Shown piece by piece: positions 7,391 to 42,399 of a stretch of 64,000 nt of DNA. The translations under genes and the position numbers were made by a program. Each line of letters begins with the position of its first letter. Positions within the stretch are counted from its first letter, which is position 1. The DNA is taken from the IMG/VR virus record IMGVR_UViG_3300045988_133811, positions 72,790-136,789 of that record; one strand, given 5' to 3'. This stretch comes from a virus. The notes beneath the pieces were generated by a model. The model had not been told where the DNA came from and ran no database searches. It saw only the letters and a list, made by a program, of their open reading frames with translations.

Positions 7391-7849
7391 ATGGAAAATA
7401 CAAATACATTAACAGTAAAATTCGTCGGTTTTGGTGGTGGATTTATGGAATATCCATGCTATAAAGATGAAAACGAAAAGCTATATTTTGACATAAACGA
7501 TGGAAAAAATGGACTTGACTTATACACTGGTGCTTACATGGATGAACTTGGAGATATTTGTGGTGAACCAAATCAGTCAGTAATGCAAGAAATCAAATGC
7601 GATAAACCATTTTCAAGGAATCTTAGGGAACGTGATTATCAGTTTCTAAGTAGATTAAAAGCAGATTGCGAATACTTCTTAAGAAATGGAAACGGTTGTA
7701 AGAAATACTTATATAAAGAAAGCATTGAAAAACATTGCGATGAGATGGAAAAAATATGGAATTCATTTACAGACGAACAAAAACCTAAATGGTTAACGAT
7801 GGAACAAATAAAAGATTTTAGAAAGAAAATGTTAAATACAAGAAAGTAG
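7391..7849 (+). CDS. Hypothetical protein (152 aa)
   Basis: RBS ggcggtggaaac + ATG. Confidence 0.55.
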   Translation: MENTNTLTVKFVGFGGGFMEYPCYKDENEKLYFDINDGKNGLDLYTGAYMDELGDICGEPNQSVMQEIKCDKPFSRNLRERDYQFLSRLKADCEYFLRNGNGCKKYLYKESIEKHCDEMEKIWNSFTDEQKPKWLTMEQIKDFRKKMLNTRK

Positions 7850-11214: not shown

Positions 11215-11649
11215 ATGAAAGCAGTATATCCTGTACTATTTACAAAAACCGATGACGGAAAATATTTAATTGAGGCACCAGATTTAAATGTATTAACGGA
11301 AGGAAAAGATATGTCGGATGCTATTAAAATGGCACGAGACGCAATGGAATTAACTTGTGTTTCTATGGAAGATAGAGAGGTGGAAATTCCTAAACCAACA
11401 AATATTACAGATATCGATATTGCGAAAAGCACATTTTTTGATGAAGGAGAAACTATTATTTCATTGGTTGATATTGATTCAACAGAATATCGAAGAAAAA
11501 TTGATACAAAATCTGTAAGAAGAAATGTTGCATTACCTAGTTGGTTAAATTATGAAGCAGAACATTCTGGAATTAATGTTTCTAAAGTGTTACAAGATGC
11601 ACTTATTCAAGTATTGAATGTTACTGATAGACCAAATTATAATAAATAA
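11215..11649 (+). CDS. hicB: HicB-family antitoxin
   Basis: Track frame 11179..11649. Start at M13 (MKAVYPVLFTKTDDGKYLIEAPDLNVLTEGKDMSDAIKMARDAMEL) after the RBS agaggtga. HicB-like N-terminal fold signature, located right after hicA. Confidence 0.6.
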   Translation: MKAVYPVLFTKTDDGKYLIEAPDLNVLTEGKDMSDAIKMARDAMELTCVSMEDREVEIPKPTNITDIDIAKSTFFDEGETIISLVDIDSTEYRRKIDTKSVRRNVALPSWLNYEAEHSGINVSKVLQDALIQVLNVTDRPNYNK

Positions 11650-12528: not shown

Positions 12529-12564
12529 AATACAAATTTTTACATAAGAAAGGTGGAATTGATT

Positions 12565-13917
12565 ATGAATCTAAACGAAATGGAAATCCCTTGCGATCCA
12601 ATTTTGGACAAAGCAAAGAGGGATGAGTTGGTGCAGAACACAGAACTTTTAAAACAGGTTACAATCAAGCCGATCCCGTGGCTTCCTGGACGAGATTATA
12701 TTACTACGGAACAGGTAGCACGATTCTTTGACGGAGATGTTGACGAGGTTAAGAGGCTGTGTACAAAGTATCGCAAAGAGTTTTTAGACGATGGAATGGA
12801 AGTTAAGACGGTGCAGGAGATCATTGACGGTCAGGACGCAGCAACGGAAAAACAGAAGGGAAGAATCATGGTAACGTATCCGAACGGATTAAATATCTCA
12901 TTCGGTTATAAGGGTGCTAAGGTGTTTACTCTTAAATGTTTAATCCGACTTTCACTACTGATGGAAACTTCAAGCCTTGCTGAGAACGTAAGACATTATG
13001 TTTTTATTAATGACTACATCACGATGGAAGAACGAAGAGAACAAGAACAGGTAGAGGCAGGTGTGCAGCTTGTTGACACAACGGAAATTTTAGGTAGACG
13101 AATTGACTTATACAGAAGTATTGAAGATCCGTTATTTTTGGCGAAGGATGTAGCAGAATGGATTGATTATAGTAAACGTCCTGACGGAACTAGGCAGATT
13201 AGTCAAATGATCAATACTATTGATAGCGAGGAAAAATATAAGACCAAAATTTTGACCGTTAATAATGTTAACGTACAAAATTTAGGTCAGCTTGATGCTA
13301 ATGGAAAAACTAAAGTTCCATTTTGGTTCCTCACAGAAGATGGACTCTATGAAGTGTGTATGCAGTCACGTAAGCCGATTGCAAAGCAGATGAAGAAACA
13401 AATTAAAGAATATCTTAAAAACATTCGTAAGACAGGCGGTGCGGTTGACTTTGGGAAAGAGTCACAGTTCATTGAACACTACTTCCCGTCATTCTCTGAA
13501 GATGTCAAGCTCGCTATGGTAACCGATCTGCGAACACAAAACAAAGAACTCAAAGAAGAAAATCAGAAGTTGCAGAATGATAATAAGCTATTAGCAGCGG
13601 AAATTTTAACATGGGATGATCGGAATAAGATGAACGCTGGTATTAGAAAATTGGCTGCGGTCACTGGAACGCAATTCTCTGTTATGTGGAACGAGCTGTA
13701 TAAGAACTTACAGTATAAATACCAGATTGATGTTAAGAAACGTGGAAAGAAACCATTTCTACAGTGGATTCAAGAACATGAATGGGATAAGGTACTGAAA
13801 GTCTTTTGTGCAATGTGTGAAGCTAGAAACCTATCTCCAACAGATATGTTCCAACAGACGGCACCTGTGGAAAATTTATATGATAATGAAGATGAGGATG
13901 ATGAAGTATGGAATTAG
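12565..13917 (+). CDS. Phage protein with a Bro-N-like (antirepressor N-terminal) domain in its central part
   Basis: Track frame 12553..13917. The segment DPLFLAKDVAEWIDYS...TEDGLYEVCMQSRKPIAKQMKKQIKEYLKNIRKTG resembles the Bro-N core. Confidence 0.45.
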   Translation: MNLNEMEIPCDPILDKAKRDELVQNTELLKQVTIKPIPWLPGRDYITTEQVARFFDGDVDEVKRLCTKYRKEFLDDGMEVKTVQEIIDGQDAATEKQKGRIMVTYPNGLNISFGYKGAKVFTLKCLIRLSLLMETSSLAENVRHYVFINDYITMEERREQEQVEAGVQLVDTTEILGRRIDLYRSIEDPLFLAKDVAEWIDYSKRPDGTRQISQMINTIDSEEKYKTKILTVNNVNVQNLGQLDANGKTKVPFWFLTEDGLYEVCMQSRKPIAKQMKKQIKEYLKNIRKTGGAVDFGKESQFIEHYFPSFSEDVKLAMVTDLRTQNKELKEENQKLQNDNKLLAAEILTWDDRNKMNAGIRKLAAVTGTQFSVMWNELYKNLQYKYQIDVKKRGKKPFLQWIQEHEWDKVLKVFCAMCEARNLSPTDMFQQTAPVENLYDNEDEDDEVWN

Positions 13918-23367: not shown

Positions 23368-23733
23368 ATGGACAATCAAATATTGGAAATGTTAGCAGCG
23401 AATCAATCAAATCAAATGCATATTGATGTACTTGATTTACACTCATCAGAAATGTCATCGTGGTTTCTGAGTGAATATAAGATTCGAGCAGATGATAGAA
23501 AGATGAAGATCTATGGCAAAGATAAAGATCTTTCATATCATTGGATCGAATTTATTCAAGATGAGAATTTGTTCTCTCATATTAGGCAGGACGACATATT
23601 TGACATAATCAAATGCCTGCAATTTACATACAAAGAGAGATACAATGTTGGAATAAAAATACAGACAATAAAAAAGAAAGCAGAAGTCTTTGGTAAAACT
23701 TCTACTTTCACACAAACTAAAAATTTCAACTAA
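23368..23733 (+). CDS. Hypothetical protein (121 aa)
   Basis: RBS aaaggaaggt. Confidence 0.55.
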   Translation: MDNQILEMLAANQSNQMHIDVLDLHSSEMSSWFLSEYKIRADDRKMKIYGKDKDLSYHWIEFIQDENLFSHIRQDDIFDIIKCLQFTYKERYNVGIKIQTIKKKAEVFGKTSTFTQTKNFN

Positions 23734-23927
23734 ACAAATCATAGATAACAAAAAAAGATTTTTTGAATCTACCGTGTTGGCAGCACGATAGAAAATCGAA
23801 TTTGATATTTAGAATTGTTTAATCTGAAAGGATAATAATATCCTTGAAATCATTATAACAATTCTAAACATGTTCGTCAACATGAAAATTTTTCCAAAAA
23901 AACTACAATTAAATACAGGAGTGATGT

Positions 23928-38350: not shown

Positions 38351-38528
38351 ACAAGAATCATTGAAGTTTTTACAAAGTTTGATTGATGAAGTAGAAAATT
38401 GGACAAAAGAAGATATTGAACGAGCGCAGAAGTTGATGGAGAAAATAGATAAAGAAGAGCCAAAAGAAGTTGAAAATAGTGATGGGTATTGGGAATTTAT
38501 AATGCCAGATGGCAAAGGAGTGAAGTAG
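38343..38528 (+). CDS. Small acidic hypothetical protein (61 aa)
   Basis: Track frame 38277..38528; ATG 38343 overlapping the upstream stop (ATGACTAA), RBS ggaagg. Confidence 0.45.
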   Translation: MTKQESLKFLQSLIDEVENWTKEDIERAQKLMEKIDKEEPKEVENSDGYWEFIMPDGKGVK

Positions 38529-38530
38529 AT

Positions 38531-40162
38531 ATGGCTAAAAAACAAGACGATAATACAATGACAATTACAAGGAAGATCACGTTAATTCCTGTCGCAAGCG
38601 AGCGAAAAGAGTGGAAGAAAAGAATTGATGCTTTCTTAGAAAAAGATTTTCCAAGAAAAATTGAAGCAAAGAAGAAACAGATTAAGAACACAAGTAAACC
38701 TGAAAGAGTAGATGGGTATAAACAACAACTTGCAGAATTAGAAAAGCAATATAAAGATTTCAAAGAAAATGGGATTAAAGAATACACTCATAAAATGGCG
38801 AGTGATTATACATATGATATTGTAAGAAGGGCAATGGAGAGTGAAGCAAGACGAAAGAACTATATTTTATCTTATATATATACAAAAATGATACAAGACG
38901 AAGTGGCAAATTTACCGACTCTTACAGAAAAGAATAAATGGGTGAGCACCAATGTAAAAGAGTGTTACCGTAAAGCAGGTAATAAGAATGGTAGTATCTT
39001 TACAAATGTTGACATTGATAATCCATTAGCAGGATATGGATCTGATTTCGGTCAAGCATTTACAAGAAAAATTAAAAAATTAATCAAAGACGGCATACTG
39101 GAAGGAAATGTTTCTGTGCCGAATTATAAATTAGATTCTCCTTTTGCTTTAAGCAATCAAAATTTTGGTATTTTTACAGATTGTGAAAATATAACAGAAT
39201 TAAAAAAGAATATTGGTAAGCCTACATATCCAGTATATGTGTGTTTAGGCAAGCATGGTCTTCCAACGATTGCTAAATTCAAGATTAATTTTGGACATAA
39301 ACAAAATAAGAATAAGGCAGAATTAATTTCAACAATTATTAAGATTCTTACAGGAGAGTATTCGGTTGGCGGAAGCACATTCGGTATTGATGACGATAAA
39401 ATAGAAATGAATTTAAGTATAACAATGCAGAAACAAAAAATGGATTTAGATGAAAATACTGTTGTTGGCGTTGACTTGGGACTTGCTGTTCCTGCCGTAT
39501 GTGCTTTAAATAATAACGAATACGACAAACAATATATCGGAAGTGGGAATGATTTTGTTACAAGAAGAACAAAATTTCAAAATGAATATACACAGTTACA
39601 AAAAGCTTTAGAATTGGCAAAAGGTGGACATGGAAGAAAAAGAAAATTATTAGCTTTAGAAAGGCTAAAAGAAAAAGAAAAGAATTTTGTTGATACATAT
39701 TGCCATCGAGTTAGTAAAAAAGTTGTTGATTATGTAATCAAACATAGAGCAAAATATATCAACATAGAAAATTTAAAAGGGTATGATTCAAGTGAATTTG
39801 TTTTAAGAAATTGGAGTTTTTATAAGCTACAGCAATATATTACATATAAAGCGGAACAATGTGGAATCATAGTTAGAAAAATCAATCCGTCATTTACATC
39901 TCAAGTGTGTAGTTTTTGTGGGCATTGGGAAGAGGGGCAAAGAAAAGATCAGGCAACATTTAAATGCAAGAATCCTAATTGTAAAAGTCACAAATTATAT
40001 ACTGTAAACGCAGATTATAATGCGGCTAGAAACATCGCAATGTCAACACAATTTACAGACGATAAATTTAAATGTTCAAAAGAAACGATTCAAGATGCGG
40101 CAGATTATTATGGAATCGTCTTAGAAGATGATAAAAATAATGATAATAAAAAAGCTGCTTAA
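38531..40162 (+). CDS. Compact TnpB/Cas12-like RNA-guided nuclease candidate (RuvC-I/II/III + C-terminal zinc finger), 544 aa
   Basis: Track frame 38489..40162; start at the ATG 38531 after the RBS aaggagtg. RuvC-I VVGVDLGLAVPAVCAL, RuvC-II YINIENLKG, zinc finger CSFCGH...CKNPNCKSH, RuvC-III TVNADYNAARNIAM. This is the canonical TnpB/Cas12f C-terminal architecture. The N-terminal 330 aa has no recognised motif. Confidence 0.75.
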   Translation: MAKKQDDNTMTITRKITLIPVASERKEWKKRIDAFLEKDFPRKIEAKKKQIKNTSKPERVDGYKQQLAELEKQYKDFKENGIKEYTHKMASDYTYDIVRRAMESEARRKNYILSYIYTKMIQDEVANLPTLTEKNKWVSTNVKECYRKAGNKNGSIFTNVDIDNPLAGYGSDFGQAFTRKIKKLIKDGILEGNVSVPNYKLDSPFALSNQNFGIFTDCENITELKKNIGKPTYPVYVCLGKHGLPTIAKFKINFGHKQNKNKAELISTIIKILTGEYSVGGSTFGIDDDKIEMNLSITMQKQKMDLDENTVVGVDLGLAVPAVCALNNNEYDKQYIGSGNDFVTRRTKFQNEYTQLQKALELAKGGHGRKRKLLALERLKEKEKNFVDTYCHRVSKKVVDYVIKHRAKYINIENLKGYDSSEFVLRNWSFYKLQQYITYKAEQCGIIVRKINPSFTSQVCSFCGHWEEGQRKDQATFKCKNPNCKSHKLYTVNADYNAARNIAMSTQFTDDKFKCSKETIQDAADYYGIVLEDDKNNDNKKAA

Positions 40163-40166
40163 GTAT

Positions 40167-40309
40167 TTGGTGTGTTTTGGAGGGAGTGCCGAACTCCCTC
40201 AACCATAAATAAAATGGTTACGCCAAAAGTGAGGAGAAATCACTCACTAAAATTTGTGTAATGAGACAGAATGTAAAGTTTTGCATTGTATACATAATTA
40301 AGATTTGAG
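40167..40309 (+). ncRNA. tracrRNA-like structured scaffold, copy 1 (starts at the nuclease stop codon)
   Basis: tttggtgtgttttgg + GC hairpin ggagggagt-gccga-actccctc + hairpin aaccat-aaataaa-atggtt + acgccaaaagtgagg-agaaat-cactcactaaaat + anti-repeat atttgtgtaat, ending in atttgagg at the repeat junction. Confidence 0.6.
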
Positions 40310-40411
40310 GTTTTAGAACCATTCAAAATTACACAAATACAAAACAAAAGAACGGCTTGTATGAATTTTCTCCGTGTTTGAGAATCATTGAAAATTACAC
40401 AAATAAAATAC
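40310..40411 (+). CRISPR. Mini CRISPR-like array 1: two related 36-nt repeats (about 30/36 identical) flanking one 30-nt spacer
   Basis: gttttagaaccattcaaaattacacaaatacaaaac | aaaagaacggcttgtatgaattttctccgt | gtttgagaatcattgaaaattacacaaataaaatac. Confidence 0.55.
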
Positions 40412-40547
40412 ATGGCATGTTTTGGGAAATTTTATTCCAATTAAAATTTCTGGTCATGGAATTGTGGCTATGCCAAAAGTGAGACCGTAAGGTACTCACT
40501 AAAATCTATGTAAATTAGGTAACAAAAATTGGACAAAAGAATTTGAG
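40412..40547 (+). ncRNA. tracrRNA-like structured scaffold, copy 2
   Basis: catggcatgttttggg + AT hairpin gaaatttta-ttccaa-ttaaaatttc + ...gctatgccaaaagtgag-accgtaaggta-ctcactaaaat + anti-repeat ctatgtaaattaggta + atttgagg junction. Same architecture as copy 1 with base-pair-preserving changes. Confidence 0.6.
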
Positions 40548-40715
40548 GTTTGATACCTATTTAATTTTACATAGGTACAAAACCGATCGAAGAAAAATTT
40601 AAGGAAAAGGGGAGTTTGATACCTATTTAATTTTACATAGGTACAAAACGTGATTACAGTAATGCAGTGTCAGAATGTGGTTTGATACCTATTTAATTTT
40701 ATGTTATTAGCTCAA
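40548..40715 (+). CRISPR. CRISPR array 2: 36-nt repeat gtttgatacctatttaattttacataggtacaaaac, two perfect copies plus a degenerate terminal copy; two 30-nt spacers
   Basis: Repeats at 40548-40583 and 40614-40649 are identical. Terminal copy 40680-40715 matches the first 22 nt. Spacers cgatcgaagaaaaatttaaggaaaagggga and gtgattacagtaatgcagtgtcagaatgtg. The repeat has an internal palindrome tacctat/ataggta. Confidence 0.8.
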
Positions 40716-40735
40716 TAAAAGAAAAATTTTAAAAT

Positions 40736-40860
40736 ACTTGGTGTGTTTTGGGAATATATATGAAATATTCTGCTCAAATAGTATTGAGTACGCCAAAAGT
40801 GAGGCTTATTATAGCACTCACTAAAATCTATGTTATTTTGTCGGATTTATGTTATTTGTG
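40736..40860 (+). ncRNA. tracrRNA-like structured scaffold, copy 3
   Basis: cttggtgtgttttggg + hairpin gaatat-atatgaa-atattc + ...gagtacgccaaaagtgagg-cttattatag-cactcactaaaat + anti-repeat ctatgttatttt. Confidence 0.6.
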
Positions 40861-40957
40861 GTTTGACAGCTATTAAAAATAACATAGGTACAAAACCTCA
40901 AAAAAGGCAGTATCTGTGGTAGGGTGCTGCTTGGCAATCATTAAAAATAACAAAATC
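40861..40957 (+). CRISPR. Mini CRISPR-like array 3: 36-nt repeat gtttgacagctattaaaaataacataggtacaaaac + 30-nt spacer + degenerate repeat
   Basis: Shares 5' gtttga and 3' ataggtacaaaac with the array-2 repeat. Spacer ctcaaaaaaggcagtatctgtggtagggtg. The following ctgcttggcaatcattaaaaataacaaaatc keeps only the central attaaaaataac block. Confidence 0.5.
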
Positions 40958-40970
40958 TAAAGGAATAAAA

Positions 40971-41138
40971 ATGAAATCAAGACGACAACGTAAACAGGAA
41001 ATAAAACGATTCTTTGATCGGTTGAGTCCGCAGGAATTGGACGCACTGTTAGAAAGAAATGGAATCAATGATAAAGAGTCAAAAGAGGCTCTTTCATATA
41101 GAATTATTAAAGAAGAAATTGAGAAAGGAGAGATATAA
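40971..41138 (+). CDS. Small basic/acidic hypothetical protein (55 aa; below the ORF-track threshold)
   Basis: ATG 40971 after aaggaataaaa; MKSRRQRKQEIKRFFDRLSPQELDALLERNGINDKESKEALSYRIIKEEIEKGEI; stop overlaps the next start (TAATG). Confidence 0.45.
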   Translation: MKSRRQRKQEIKRFFDRLSPQELDALLERNGINDKESKEALSYRIIKEEIEKGEI

Positions 41139-41449
41139 TGAACCACTTCTTATATATTGAATCACGGGAAGAAGAGAATACATCCCTCGATTCTAAACGT
41201 GTTTTATTAAATGAAGAAAATTACAAACATATTATTTCATCATTAGATCATTATCCACCGACGGCAGATGAAGTTAAGAGAGCAATTTGTATTTTGATAG
41301 GACGATTGATCTATAGAAGCGTTTGGAATATGGAATCTGATATTGATAGTTTAAATATGAGTTTATCCCCGCCAAAAGAAATGACGGTTGCAGAAATCGA
41401 AAAAGAACTCGGTCATAAAGTAAAAATTGTAGAGGAGAAAGAAGAATGA
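41138..41449 (+). CDS. Hypothetical protein (103 aa)
   Basis: RBS gaaaggagagat. Confidence 0.5.
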   Translation: MNHFLYIESREEENTSLDSKRVLLNEENYKHIISSLDHYPPTADEVKRAICILIGRLIYRSVWNMESDIDSLNMSLSPPKEMTVAEIEKELGHKVKIVEEKEE

Positions 41450-42399
41450 AATGTTTTTATCACGTTGATCAAGACGGAATTGTATCTGGTTTTTACGTTA
41501 GAAAAGCTTGTGAACAGCGAGGTTTAGCATTTGAACCAGAGGACTTCCGAAAAATTAATTACGGCATGAAATTCCCGTTTCATGACATTGAGCAGGATGA
41601 ATTTGTGTTTATTGTAGACTACAGTATTGAGCCAGAAGAGATGTGGCAGTTGCTCAGTATTACAAAGAATGTATTTTGGATCGACCATCATCAGTCTACG
41701 ATTGAAGCGTATAAAGATTTCAAGTGTGATGTAAAAGGAATCAGAATTACTGGAGCGGGTATTTCAGGAGCGAATTTGACATGGTTATATTTTAAATATA
41801 TGTGTGATGAAAATTGGGAGCAAATTGAGAGGACGGATGAGAAAAATGTAAAAAGATTACTCAATATATATAAATATAAAGCAGATTATCCAAAACTGGC
41901 AGAATATACAGCCATGTGGGATACATTTTATTTTGGTGAAACGTCAAAACAATTCGTAAAAGCATTTCACTATGCATTTGAATCGTATGATTTTGATGCG
42001 TTAAGTCCATTGCTAAACACGTTAAATAAAGATCAAGGAATTTATGAAGCAGCAAAAATTATTGGTGATATGATAGCAGATGGCTTATCAATTATTGAGT
42101 ATTTAGCAGCAAATGCAGAACAATATCTTAGAGCATATGGTTTTGAAACCATATTTGAGGGACATAAAGTCTATGCAATCAACCGAGCATTAATCAATTA
42201 TGATTTCTTTGAATCTATTGATGCTTCTAAATATGATATGTTCATTGGTTTTTCGTTCAATGGAAGTATGTGGGAATATCAGTTGCGATCCGCAGAACAG
42301 GATAAAGTAAATGTGTATGAGCTTGCTGTGAAATATGGTGGCGGTGGTCATCCAAATGCAGCTGGGTTCAGAAGTGATAAGTATGTGTTAGGAGTGTGA
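41446..42399 (+). CDS. DHH/DHHA1-family phosphoesterase (NrnA-like)
   Basis: FYHVDQDGIVSG (DxD), FWIDHHQST (DHH), GGGHPNAAGF (DHHA1 GGGH motif). Confidence 0.7.
   Translation: MKCFYHVDQDGIVSGFYVRKACEQRGLAFEPEDFRKINYGMKFPFHDIEQDEFVFIVDYSIEPEEMWQLLSITKNVFWIDHHQSTIEAYKDFKCDVKGIRITGAGISGANLTWLYFKYMCDENWEQIERTDEKNVKRLLNIYKYKADYPKLAEYTAMWDTFYFGETSKQFVKAFHYAFESYDFDALSPLLNTLNKDQGIYEAAKIIGDMIADGLSIIEYLAANAEQYLRAYGFETIFEGHKVYAINRALINYDFFESIDASKYDMFIGFSFNGSMWEYQLRSAEQDKVNVYELAVKYGGGGHPNAAGFRSDKYVLGV

What the first reader, a model, noticed from the sequence alone, without database searches (positions are those of the whole stretch)
38531..40970. Phage-borne compact TnpB/Cas12-like nuclease followed by three tandem tracrRNA-like scaffold + mini-array modules
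A 544-aa protein with an unmistakable TnpB/Cas12f-type C-terminus (RuvC-I GVDLG, RuvC-II IENLKG, CxxC...CxxC zinc finger, RuvC-III NADYNAARNIA) sits inside an otherwise typical phage gene block. Its stop codon abuts about 800 bp of non-coding DNA. That DNA is a three-fold tandem repetition of [about 130-nt structured scaffold] + [36-nt repeat / 30-nt spacer mini-array]. Classical Cas12f loci have one tracrRNA and one array. TnpB has one ωRNA fused to the transposon end. Neither published architecture has three co-linear scaffold/array cassettes behind one nuclease. A single effector apparently served by three parallel guide modules on a phage is unusual. It could be an intermediate between transposon-end ωRNAs and bona fide CRISPR arrays, or a phage counter-defence or inter-phage competition weapon.
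Basis: partly seen in the sequence, partly recalled or inferred. Interest (0 to 1): 0.95.

Follow-up and report, generated by a model that had tools for sequence, protein, structure and literature searches.

The report
Phage Cas12f with three guide cassettes
A large gut phage carries a miniature CRISPR nuclease (Cas12f) followed by three separate "scaffold RNA plus mini-array" cassettes, and the guides match two other mobile elements: cassette 1 matches an 18-kb mini-phage or satellite, and cassettes 2 and 3 match a 13-kb plasmid.

Summary
ORF 38531-40162 encodes a 543-aa Cas12f of the V-F1/V-U3 branch, with an intact RuvC D/E/D triad and zinc finger. It lies in a phage genome that has no cas1, cas2, cas4 or tnpA.

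The 808 bp downstream hold three tandem modules. Each module is a structured tracrRNA-like scaffold followed by a 36-nt-repeat / 30-nt-spacer mini-array, with 1, 2 and 1 spacers.

Eleven related phage loci keep the same modules but carry almost entirely different spacers, 1-3 per module. One relative has four modules.

Covariation across 24 modules supports a Cas12f-type fold. It also shows that each scaffold's two anti-repeat segments co-vary with the repeat of its own module.

The spacers have real targets with a 5' T-rich PAM. Module-1 spacers, including the window's at 27/30, hit an ~18.5-kb element that encodes an integrase and capsid genes. Module-2 and module-3 spacers, including the window's M3 spacer at 30/30, hit a circular ~13-kb Rep/ParA plasmid-like element from the human gut. 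No spacer crosses between the two groups (Fisher p = 3e-5).

The locus is therefore a working phage-borne type V-F system used against other mobile elements, not a TnpB-to-CRISPR intermediate. Phage-borne Cas12f is already known. I found no description of the multi-tracrRNA cassette layout or of the module-to-target specialisation.

The parts
38531..40162 (+). cas12f gene (543 aa), V-F1/V-U3 branch, with RuvC D315/E413/D495 and a CCCC zinc finger
   Evidence: Pfam Cas12f1-like_TNB 2e-17 and OrfB_IS605. PADLOC Cas12u3 1.6e-94 and Cas12f 4.7e-91. PDB CnCas12f1 7e-60. AF2 model pLDDT 87. Foldseek full-length hits to CnCas12f1, Al3Cas12f and AsCas12f at 1e-25 to 1e-22. Conservation in 50 homologues.
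40166..40309 (+). Module 1 tracrRNA-like scaffold. P1 stem closes a junction that holds the unpaired GUUUUG (40174-40179, pseudoknot strand) and two hairpins. A GUGAG/CUCAC hairpin follows, then the anti-repeat AUUUGUGUAAU (40252-40262) and a linker ending in AUUUGAG.
   Evidence: Fold z = -5.5. Consensus structure and covariation. nhmmer hit 5.9e-22.
40310..40411 (+). Module 1 mini-array: repeat 40310-40345, spacer 40346-40375, degenerate terminal repeat 40376-40411. The 3' end of the terminal repeat (TAAAATAC) may act as a -10 box for the module 2 scaffold.
   Evidence: The spacer matches the large-terminase gene of the ~18.5-kb family A element at 27/30. The TAAAATA(C/T) variant of the terminal repeat is kept in all relatives. 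The promoter role is inference.
40411..40547 (+). Module 2 tracrRNA-like scaffold, with the same topology. Anti-repeat AUCUAUGUAAA at 40504-40514.
   Evidence: z = -2.5; 2.1e-22.
40548..40715 (+). Module 2 mini-array: repeats 40548-40583 and 40614-40649, spacers 40584-40613 and 40650-40679, degenerate terminal repeat 40680-40715.
   Evidence: No target was found for these two spacers. Orthologous M2 spacers in relatives hit the 13-kb family B element.
40737..40860 (+). Module 3 tracrRNA-like scaffold. Anti-repeat AUCUAUGUUAU at 40826-40836. It is preceded by TAAAAT at 40730-40735.
   Evidence: z = -2.8; 2.7e-20.
40861..40962 (+). Module 3 mini-array: repeat 40861-40896, spacer 40897-40926, degenerate terminal repeat ~40927-40962. 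The terminal repeat overlaps the RBS of the next gene (ATG 40971).
   Evidence: The spacer matches the circular 13.1-kb element at L040:11559-11588 at 30/30. The identity extends to 38 nt.

Best explanation
This is a functional, adaptation-less type V-F CRISPR-Cas12f system carried by a large phage (~140-170 kb) of gut Firmicutes. Its guide RNAs are organised as three self-contained cassettes.

**How a cassette is built.**
- Each cassette encodes its own tracrRNA, immediately followed on the same strand by a 1-3-spacer array.
- The tracrRNA 5' GUUUUG pairs with the repeat 3' end CAAAAC to form a pseudoknot (R:AR-1).
- The tracrRNA 3' anti-repeat pairs with the middle of the repeat (R:AR-2). 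This is the arrangement seen in solved Cas12f-sgRNA complexes.
- The three cassettes have diverged, so each tracrRNA pairs best with its own repeat.
- Because scaffold and first repeat are co-linear, the primary transcript can fold in cis into a natural single-guide RNA. This step is inferred.

**What the complex does.**
- The Cas12f-guide complex recognises a 5' T-rich PAM: T at -4, no G at -3, mostly purine at -2.
- It is expected to cut DNA of two other mobile elements that share the host.
- Cassette 1 is aimed at an ~18.5-kb element with an integrase and capsid genes, either a miniature temperate phage or a capsid-forming satellite.
- Cassettes 2 and 3 are aimed at a circular ~13-kb Rep/ParA plasmid-like element.

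**Shown versus inferred.**
- Shown: gene identity, RNA structure and covariation, spacer turnover, targets, PAM, and cassette-target specialisation.
- Inferred: transcription and processing, cleavage rather than mere binding, the source of new spacers (probably a host Cas1-Cas2 acting in trans, or recombination), and the benefit to the phage.
For: **Protein.**
- It is a Cas12f by profile, sequence and fold, with conserved catalytic residues.

**RNA.**
- RNAalifold on 24 modules independently predicts the P1 stem, hairpins and the anti-repeat:repeat helix.
- With the pseudoknot added, 98.1% of cells pair, against 32-55% in slid controls. Twelve of 33 pairs show compensatory changes.
- The R:AR-2 helix is 100% paired, with 5 of 11 pairs covarying.
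- The pseudoknot covaries twice: GUUUCG/CGAAAC and GUUCUG/CGGAAC.
- Cognate duplexes are -12 to -18 kcal/mol, against -4 to -9 for non-cognate pairs.

**Population.**
- Eleven related loci at 68-99% protein identity keep the cassette order but carry different spacers, 1-3 per cassette. One relative has 4 cassettes.
- More distant relatives at ~50% identity also place a scaffold in front of each array.

**Targets.**
- Eight M1 spacers hit family A and twelve M2/M3 spacers hit family B. None crosses (Fisher p = 3e-5).
- The window's own M1 spacer matches at 27/30 and its M3 spacer at 30/30.
- The 5' flank has T at -4 in 16 of 18 protospacers (p = 1.4e-6).

**Other.**
- No Cas1/Cas2/Cas4 or TnpA was found among 88 ORFs.
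- No spacer self-targets the window.
Against: - There is no expression, processing or cleavage data.
- No canonical sigma-70 promoter or terminator flanks the scaffolds.
- Two of the four window spacers (both in M2) have no identified target.
- The window's M1 spacer has 3 mismatches to every family A variant I could retrieve.
- The covariation alignment mixes paralogous and orthologous modules, so the number of independent events is smaller than the cell counts suggest.
- The host organism is not identified.
- It is not shown that the phage and the two target elements share a host. Co-occurrence of family A and the phages in one IMG metagenome (3300045988) is only suggestive.
Confidence: 0.85

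Rival explanations
1. The locus is a TnpB / IS200-IS605-type element, or a TnpB-to-CRISPR transitional form. On this view the scaffolds are omega-RNA-like transposon ends duplicated in tandem.
For: NCBIfam's best hit above its own cut-off is the generic guided_TnpB subfamily (3.4e-44). Pfam reports OrfB_IS605. Scaffold and guide lie co-linear on one strand, as in an omega-RNA.
Against: - Cas12f-specific profiles score far higher (1.6e-94 and 4.7e-91).
- Structure search puts Cas12f 13-15 orders of magnitude ahead of TnpB.
- There is no TnpA.
- The scaffold does not overlap the 3' end of the gene.
- Full 36-nt repeats flank 30-nt spacers, arrays hold 1-3 spacers, and spacers turn over between near-identical phages.
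- The locus is syntenic in phage relatives rather than dispersed in many copies.
Confidence: 0.03
2. Only the arrays are functional. The 'scaffolds' are array leaders or promoters, or only one of them is a real tracrRNA, and the other copies are duplication by-products.
For: Each scaffold sits exactly where a CRISPR leader would sit. A conserved ATTTGAG precedes every first repeat, which could be a leader-anchoring site. There is no direct evidence of transcription.
Against: - All three scaffolds keep the same multi-helix fold through compensatory changes.
- Both anti-repeat segments of each scaffold track the sequence of that module's own repeat, including independent double changes in L001 M2/M4 and L017.
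- Cognate duplexes are much more stable than cross duplexes.
- A leader has no reason to co-vary with the repeat in this way.
Confidence: 0.07
3. The system acts as a programmable DNA binder or repressor of genes on the target elements, not as a nuclease.
For: Phage 'dCas14' cases proposed to act as repressors are on record (PMC7162821). Some protospacers lie in intergenic or origin-like regions of the plasmid (L040 ~7700-7830 and 11559-11588).
Against: RuvC D315/E413/D495 and the zinc finger are intact and conserved across the clade. Protospacers are spread over coding regions on both strands of both targets. That pattern fits destruction better than promoter silencing.
Confidence: 0.08
4. 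The locus is a decaying, non-functional remnant, or the tandem modules are an assembly artefact.
For: Terminal repeats are degenerate. One relative (L034) has lost cas12f by deletion. Several contigs break inside the arrays.
Against: - The same three-module layout is assembled independently in more than 10 contigs from different samples and pipelines.
- The ORF is intact at 68-99% identity.
- Spacers match coexisting elements perfectly or nearly so, and a PAM is conserved.
Confidence: 0.02

Closest known systems
Type V-F1 (V-U3) CRISPR-Cas12f, e.g. CnCas12f1 (PDB 8HR5), Al3Cas12f, AsCas12f
   Same: - Same effector family by sequence and predicted fold.
- tracrRNA-dependent, with a 36-nt repeat ending in ...AAC.
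- The tracrRNA pairs with the repeat at two sites, including a pseudoknot with the repeat 3' end.
- 5' T-rich PAM.
- Often lacks cas1/cas2.
   Different: - Canonical loci have one tracrRNA region and one array. The bacterial relative L012 (Ectobacillus antri) has a single 16-repeat array.
- Here there are 3 tracrRNA genes (1-4 in relatives), each fused upstream of its own 1-3-spacer array, with diverged, cognate repeat/anti-repeat pairs.
- The N-terminal half (residues 1-247) has no detectable sequence similarity to solved Cas12f proteins.
Phage-encoded CRISPR systems used in conflicts between mobile elements: huge-phage V-F/Cas14, CasPhi, Cas-lambda and Cas12p 'hacker', Vibrio phage ICP1 type I-F against the PLE satellite, and viral mini-arrays
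   Same: - Carried by a phage and lacking an adaptation module.
- Short arrays.
- Spacers aimed at other mobile elements of the same host (PMC7162821; PMC11656645; ICP1/PLE from my own knowledge of Seed et al. 2013).
   Different: - CasPhi and Cas-lambda need no tracrRNA.
- Cas12p is a different family (Foldseek 7e-10) with a single tracrRNA.
- ICP1 uses a class 1 system with conventional arrays.
- Viral mini-arrays borrow the host's Cas proteins.
- None is described with several tracrRNA+array cassettes, or with cassettes dedicated to different targets.
TnpB omega-RNA / natural single-guide RNAs: tracr-L, and phage vsgRNAs for Cas9 (bioRxiv 10.64898/2026.06.01.729453)
   Same: Scaffold and guide are encoded co-linearly, so one transcript can carry both functions. 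Each guide has its own scaffold copy.
   Different: - The guide here sits in a true repeat-spacer-repeat unit and is exchangeable.
- The phage brings its own nuclease and uses the guides offensively.
- vsgRNAs instead hijack or silence the host's Cas9.
- There is no transposon context.

Membership tests
Type V-F CRISPR-Cas12f | Compact effector (400-700 aa) with a C-terminal split RuvC domain plus a zinc-ribbon TNB domain, closest to Cas12f rather than to TnpB or other Cas12 subtypes | tested here: met
   PADLOC Cas12u3 1.6e-94 and Cas12f 4.7e-91. Pfam Cas12f1-like_TNB. PDB phmmer CnCas12f1 7e-60. Foldseek top 22 hits are all Cas12f; TnpB scores 1e-10 to 1e-12.
Type V-F CRISPR-Cas12f | Catalytic RuvC D/E/D triad and CCCC zinc finger present | tested here: met
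   D315, E413, D495 and C460/C463/C479/C484 are invariant or >=90% conserved in 50 homologues. They align with the CnCas12f1 motifs.
Type V-F CRISPR-Cas12f | Adjacent CRISPR array with variable spacers | tested here: met
   36-nt repeats and ~30-nt spacers. Spacers differ between phages at 90-99% Cas12f identity, with 1-3 spacers per array.
Type V-F CRISPR-Cas12f | tracrRNA with anti-repeat complementarity to the repeat, including a pseudoknot with the repeat 3' end | tested here: met
   Covariation-supported R:AR-2 helix (11 bp, 100% paired) and pseudoknot (6 bp, 99% paired, 2 covarying pairs). The evidence is sequence and structure only; no RNA data.
Type V-F CRISPR-Cas12f | 5' PAM, usually T-rich | tested here: met
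   T at -4 in 16 of 18 protospacers (p = 1.4e-6), no G at -3, purine at -2 in 14 of 18. There is no signal on the 3' side.
Type V-F CRISPR-Cas12f | Asymmetric homodimer on one guide RNA; RNA-guided dsDNA cleavage | not testable with these tools
   Requires biochemistry or cryo-EM.
TnpB / IS200-IS605 transposon | Association with a TnpA (Y1 or serine) transposase and/or defined LE/RE ends; multi-copy dispersal | tested here: not met
   No Y1 transposase among 88 ORFs. The locus is single-copy in the window and syntenic in relatives.
TnpB / IS200-IS605 transposon | omega-RNA overlapping the 3' end of tnpB and ending at the transposon RE, with the guide taken from flanking DNA and no repeats | tested here: not met
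   The scaffold starts after the stop codon. The guide is bracketed by 36-nt repeats.
CasPhi (Cas12j) / Cas-lambda (Cas12l) phage effectors | No tracrRNA (self-processing crRNA); distinct effector family | tested here: not met
   A tracrRNA-like scaffold is present. Foldseek to Cas-lambda reaches only about 3e-7 to 1e-6 at 10-12% identity.
Cas12p 'hacker' (phage, TrxA-dependent) | Cas12p effector family | tested here: not met
   phmmer to 9jfs 2e-4. Foldseek 7.5e-10 at 12% identity, far below the Cas12f hits.

The most novel reading that the evidence does not exclude
The tracrRNA+mini-array unit is a new organisational principle: an autonomous, horizontally exchangeable 'guide gene'.

- Each unit has its own promoter, made from the degenerate terminal repeat of the preceding unit.
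- Each unit has its own semi-orthogonal repeat:anti-repeat code.
- Each unit has its own dedicated enemy: cassette 1 is anti-satellite or anti-mini-phage, and cassettes 2 and 3 are anti-plasmid.

On this reading, one miniature nuclease is time-shared between separately regulated and separately updated guide channels. Spacer acquisition or retention is channel-specific even though the phage has no Cas1-Cas2 of its own.
Probability: 0.35. Interest if true: 0.9.

Novelty: new variant of a known kind. Interest (0 to 1): 0.8.

Why it matters
1. It shows a natural way to run several guide "channels" on one miniature nuclease. The three tracrRNA:repeat pairs are partly orthogonal, which is directly useful for multiplexed or separately regulated Cas12f editing. 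Scaffold lengths from ~100 to ~145 nt act as a natural truncation series for sgRNA design.

2. It gives a clear, testable case of a phage using CRISPR against two different co-resident mobile elements. One is a small capsid-encoding integrative element that may be its satellite. The other is a plasmid. The division of labour between arrays is unexplained and raises the question of how spacers are acquired and sorted without Cas1-Cas2.

3. The family is large. There are 880 homologues at E<1e-10, many on contigs of 140-230 kb. The layout may therefore be common in gut phages and could have been missed by array finders, which need at least 3 repeats.

Tried and rejected
- **Rfam scan (4 kb).** Only sub-threshold CRISPR-DR22 hits on two repeats; no known tracrRNA family.
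- **blastn of the locus against INPHARED phages.** No match.
- **BLAST of 25 spacers against INPHARED phages and PLSDB plasmids.** No match.
- **Exact 22-mers of three window spacers in IMG/VR.** No match.
- **First metagenome scan with an L006 M2 spacer.** No match.
- **Scans with L007 M3 and L010 M2 spacers.** These found only other arrays, not protospacers.
- **What worked.** Two M1 spacers from different phages overlap by 19 nt. That overlap gave the family A pattern. A second metagenome scan then found family B.
- **Genome-contig scan.** It returned only one distant bacterial Cas12f, so the host remains unidentified.
- **Sigma-70 promoter and terminator scan.** No convincing sites for the scaffolds. 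The promoter proposal rests only on the conserved TAAAATA(C/T).
- **Defence content of the plasmid.** Only a weak radical-SAM/pVip hit (1e-9). This is not enough to call the system counter-defence.
- **Satellite or phage for family A.** Unresolved. It has an integrase, scaffold protein, major capsid protein, TerL, portal, a helicase and one tail-fibre-like gene in ~18.5 kb.
- **Reverse targeting.** No CRISPR repeats or credible scaffolds occur in families A or B; the only nhmmer scaffold hits there are two marginal ones (E 0.006 and 0.018) on two family A loci.
- **Literature.** Searches for multiple, duplicated or tandem tracrRNAs with Cas12f found nothing relevant. Subscription-only papers were not searched.
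Full report
**1.

The ORF from ATG 38531 (AAGGAG 9 nt upstream) to the stop at 40160-40162 encodes 543 aa. It is followed by 808 bp without a credible ORF, up to the ATG at 40971.

Repeat analysis and a Hamming scan resolve three tandem modules:

| Module | Scaffold | Repeats and spacers |
|---|---|---|
| M1 | 40166-40309 | repeat 40310-45, spacer 40346-75, degenerate repeat 40376-411 |
| M2 | 40411-40547 | repeats 40548-83 and 40614-49, spacers 40584-613 and 40650-79, degenerate repeat 40680-715 |
| M3 | 40737-40860 | repeat 40861-96, spacer 40897-926, degenerate repeat ~40927-62 |

- A profile built from the scaffolds finds exactly these three copies in the 64 kb.
- No repeat-like sequence occurs elsewhere in the window.
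- The window is a phage. All genes are on one strand and GC is 32%. It encodes a PolIII-alpha-type DNA polymerase, DnaB, RecJ, a sigma factor and Bro/Ant proteins.

**2. The protein is a Cas12f, not a TnpB**

- Pfam gives Cas12f1-like_TNB plus OrfB_IS605.
- PADLOC gives Cas12u3 1.6e-94 and Cas12f 4.7e-91.
- The best solved relatives are CnCas12f1 (8HR5, 7e-60) and Al3Cas12f (7.5e-59). TnpB scores only 3e-3.
- An AlphaFold model built on 50 homologues (pLDDT 87) aligns over its full length to CnCas12f1, Al3Cas12f and AsCas12f at 1e-25 to 1e-22. TnpB aligns at 1e-10 to 1e-12, Cas12p at 7.5e-10 and Cas-lambda at about 3e-7 to 1e-6.
- D315, E413, D495 and the four zinc-finger cysteines are conserved across the clade.
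- Among 88 plus-strand ORFs of 70 aa or more there is no Cas1, Cas2, Cas4 or Y1 transposase, and only one Cas12f/TnpB-like gene.

**3. The scaffolds are tracrRNAs matched to their own repeats**

All three scaffolds fold alone into the same topology (z = -5.5, -2.5, -2.8):
- a P1 stem closing a junction that leaves GUUUUG unpaired and carries two hairpins;
- a GUGAG/CUCAC hairpin;
- a single-stranded anti-repeat.

I aligned 24 scaffold-plus-first-repeat segments from the window and seven related loci (A1).
- RNAalifold, run without any hint, predicted P1, the first junction hairpin (H1), the GUGAG/CUCAC hairpin (P2) and an 11-bp helix between anti-repeat and repeat. Ten of 28 pairs showed compensatory change.
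- I then added the pseudoknot between the scaffold GUUUUG and the repeat 3' end CAAAAC. With it, 98.1% of cells pair, against 32-55% when partners are slid by 1-3 columns.
- Twelve of 33 pairs carry double changes. The R:AR-2 helix is 100% paired, with 5 of 11 pairs covarying.
- The pseudoknot covaries twice independently: L001-M2 has GUUUCG/CGAAAC and L001-M4 has GUUCUG/CGGAAC.
- Cognate anti-repeat:repeat duplexes are -12.1, -17.9 and -17.1 kcal/mol. Non-cognate combinations are -4.1 to -9.1.

This two-site pairing, including a pseudoknot with the repeat 3' end, is what structural papers describe for Cas12-family tracrRNAs (10.1101/2025.01.20.633832).

**4. The layout is conserved and the spacers turn over**

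- Seven IMG/VR contigs have 90-98% protein identity.
- A 158.6-kb ENA contig has 99% identity.
- Logan contigs have 68-69% identity.
- All carry the cassettes in the same order, and the 69% relative L001 has four.
- Apart from three near-identical contigs, spacers differ completely between loci. The count per cassette varies from 1 to 3: the window has 1/2/1, L006 has 1/3/2 and L018 has 2/2/1.
- The first repeat is always intact and the last is always degenerate.
- Relatives at ~50% identity also put a scaffold in front of each array. L017 has one upstream of the gene and two downstream. L015 has one upstream and one downstream.
- A bacterial Cas12f locus (Ectobacillus antri, 37% identity) has the canonical single gap plus one 16-repeat array.
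- The degenerate terminal repeat of M1 always ends in TAAAATA(C/T), 5-7 nt before the next scaffold. This may be a -10 box. That is inference: the consensus promoter scan found nothing convincing.

**5. The targets**

Direct BLAST of the spacers against isolate phages and plasmids found nothing, and exact scans with the window's spacers also failed.

*Family A*
- The M1 spacers of L018 and L006 overlap by 19 nt. Scanning IMG/VR with that overlap found twelve contigs of 17.8-19.0 kb, mostly from the same metagenome as the phages.
- Family A has GC of 36.7%. It encodes a tyrosine integrase, a Big_2 protein, a scaffold protein, a major capsid protein, an SF2 helicase, a large terminase, a portal and one tail-fibre-like protein.
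- Its capsid protein is 32-34% identical to capsids of ~37-kb siphophages.
- It is therefore either a miniature temperate phage or a capsid-forming satellite. I could not decide between these.

*Family B*
- A metagenome scan with an L006 M2 spacer found contigs of ~13 kb.
- Two of them have 55-nt terminal overlaps, which marks them as complete circles.
- They encode Rep, ParA plus an RHH protein, a serine recombinase, an HNH endonuclease, a radical-SAM protein and an SprT-like protein.
- One contig is labelled human gut.
- A 70-nt stretch is shared with small plasmids of Waltera, Mediterraneibacter and Clostridium perfringens.

*Module-to-target pattern*

| Spacers from | Hit family A | Hit family B |
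|---|---|---|
| M1 | 8 | 0 |
| M2 or M3 | 0 | 12 |

- Hits are counted at E <= 0.01.
- On the stricter count of 7 and 11 hits, Fisher p = 3e-5.
- The window's M1 spacer matches the terminase gene of family A at 27/30.
- The window's M3 spacer matches L040:11559-11588 at 30/30.
- Both matches are independent of the spacers used to retrieve the families.
- Protospacers lie on both strands and in many genes.
- Mismatches in the best-resolved cases (w_M1s1, L001_1, L002_1) fall mostly three nucleotides apart (my reading, not a formal test), as expected for synonymous divergence of the targets.
- The 5' flank has T at -4 in 16 of 18 protospacers (p = 1.4e-6), never G at -3, and a purine at -2 in 14 of 18. 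The 3' flank shows no signal.
- No spacer matches the window itself.

**6. Mechanism**

*Shown*
- A catalytically intact Cas12f.
- Three cognate tracrRNA/array units.
- Guides complementary to PAM-flanked sites in two other mobile elements.

*Inferred*
- Each unit is transcribed, either from its own weak promoter or by read-through from cas12f, since no terminator lies in between.
- The scaffold pairs with the adjacent repeat. For the first spacer this can happen in cis, giving a natural single guide.
- Host RNases trim the RNA.
- The Cas12f dimer then cleaves family A or family B DNA during infection.
- This removes a competitor or parasite (A) and a plasmid (B) whose effect on the phage is unknown.
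- New spacers probably come from a host Cas1-Cas2 acting in trans. The conserved ATTTGAG at the leader-repeat junction would suit this. Recombination is the alternative.

*Recombination between cassettes does occur*
- Relative L034 has fused M2- and M3-type repeats into one array.
- It has lost cas12f, M1 and the M2 scaffold through a deletion at a 16-nt microhomology.
- Divergence of the cassettes may therefore also protect against such deletions.

Why M1 and M2/M3 are each dedicated to a different target remains unexplained.

**7. Comparison and novelty**

- Membership in type V-F is met on every feature I could test.
- The TnpB, CasPhi/Cas-lambda and Cas12p alternatives each fail a defining feature.
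- Phage-borne V-F/Cas14 without adaptation genes, and phage CRISPR aimed at other phages, are already published (PMC7162821, PMC11656645).
- In the searchable literature I found no description of (a) several tracrRNA genes, each fused to its own mini-array behind one Cas12f, (b) co-evolved, partly orthogonal repeat/anti-repeat pairs within one locus, or (c) arrays of one locus dedicated to different target elements.
- I therefore rate this a new variant of a known kind. It is of high interest both for phage-satellite-plasmid conflict biology and for Cas12f guide engineering.

Noticed in passing
L034:3560-3960 (IMG/VR contig 3300045988_130367, 141 kb), compared with window 38396-38411 and 40525-40540: A close relative of the phage lacks cas12f, module 1 and the module 2 scaffold. 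The deletion joins the two copies of a 16-nt microhomology, AAATTGGACAAAAGAA. What remains is an orphan hybrid array: two M2-type repeats followed by M3-type repeats. It carries a spacer shared with L007 M3 apart from 1 mismatch.
   Followed up: partly
window 13234-13290 (inside the Ant/KilAC anti-repressor ORF 12553-13917): A stretch of 36-47 nt is 93-98% identical to a segment of the ~18.5-kb family A elements (e.g. L046:1034-1078, L030:6404-6439). Otherwise the phage and the element share no detectable similarity. It could be a shared regulatory or sensing sequence, which would matter if family A is a satellite of this phage.
   Followed up: no
window 40895-40932 compared with L040:11557-11594: The perfect match of the M3 spacer to the 13-kb plasmid is 38 nt long. 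It runs 2 nt into the preceding repeat and 6 nt into the degenerate terminal repeat. The real spacer may therefore be ~32 nt, or the terminal repeat 5' end may have been overwritten when the spacer was acquired.
   Followed up: partly
window 23710-23790 compared with L040:11011-11095: An 87-nt stretch is ~75% identical between the phage and the targeted plasmid-like element (E = 2e-7). Its nature is unknown.
   Followed up: no
window, ORF not located (one of 88 plus-strand ORFs): One phage protein hits the PADLOC 'Csx1' model at 4.5e-23. A CARF/Csx1-like protein in a phage could bear on cyclic-oligoadenylate signalling or anti-CRISPR activity. I did not identify which ORF it is.
   Followed up: no
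L010:5080-5109 and L010:5323-5353: The M2 and M3 spacers of one phage share their last 12-13 nt (ATGCAAGTCTGC). This suggests they target two copies of a repeated or paralogous sequence. The M3 spacer hits family B at 27/31.
   Followed up: partly
L040 ~7697-7834 (also L042:518-547 and 1876-1905, inverted): Two protospacers (L006 M2c and L007 M3) cluster in or next to a 70-nt stretch of the plasmid. That stretch is conserved in small plasmids of Waltera intestinalis, Mediterraneibacter gnavus and Clostridium perfringens. It is probably an origin or antisense-RNA region, and it hints at a Lachnospiraceae/Clostridia host.
   Followed up: partly
L001:9039-9658: In the four-module relative, two Tad2-like (anti-Thoeris) genes sit just downstream of the CRISPR cassettes. 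The neighbourhood may therefore be an anti-defence / conflict island. The window instead has a DHH phosphoesterase at this position (41446-42399).
   Followed up: no
L015:3753-3958: The array upstream of this distant relative's cas12f contains an exact 103-nt tandem duplication, so the same repeat-spacer-repeat unit appears twice. This is either a recent duplication or an assembly artefact.
   Followed up: no
window, various (Pfam summary): The phage also encodes a MazF/PemK toxin, a HicB-like antitoxin, a tyrosine integrase, LAGLIDADG and HNH homing endonucleases, an SPFH/flotillin protein and an RlaP nucleotidyltransferase.
   Followed up: no
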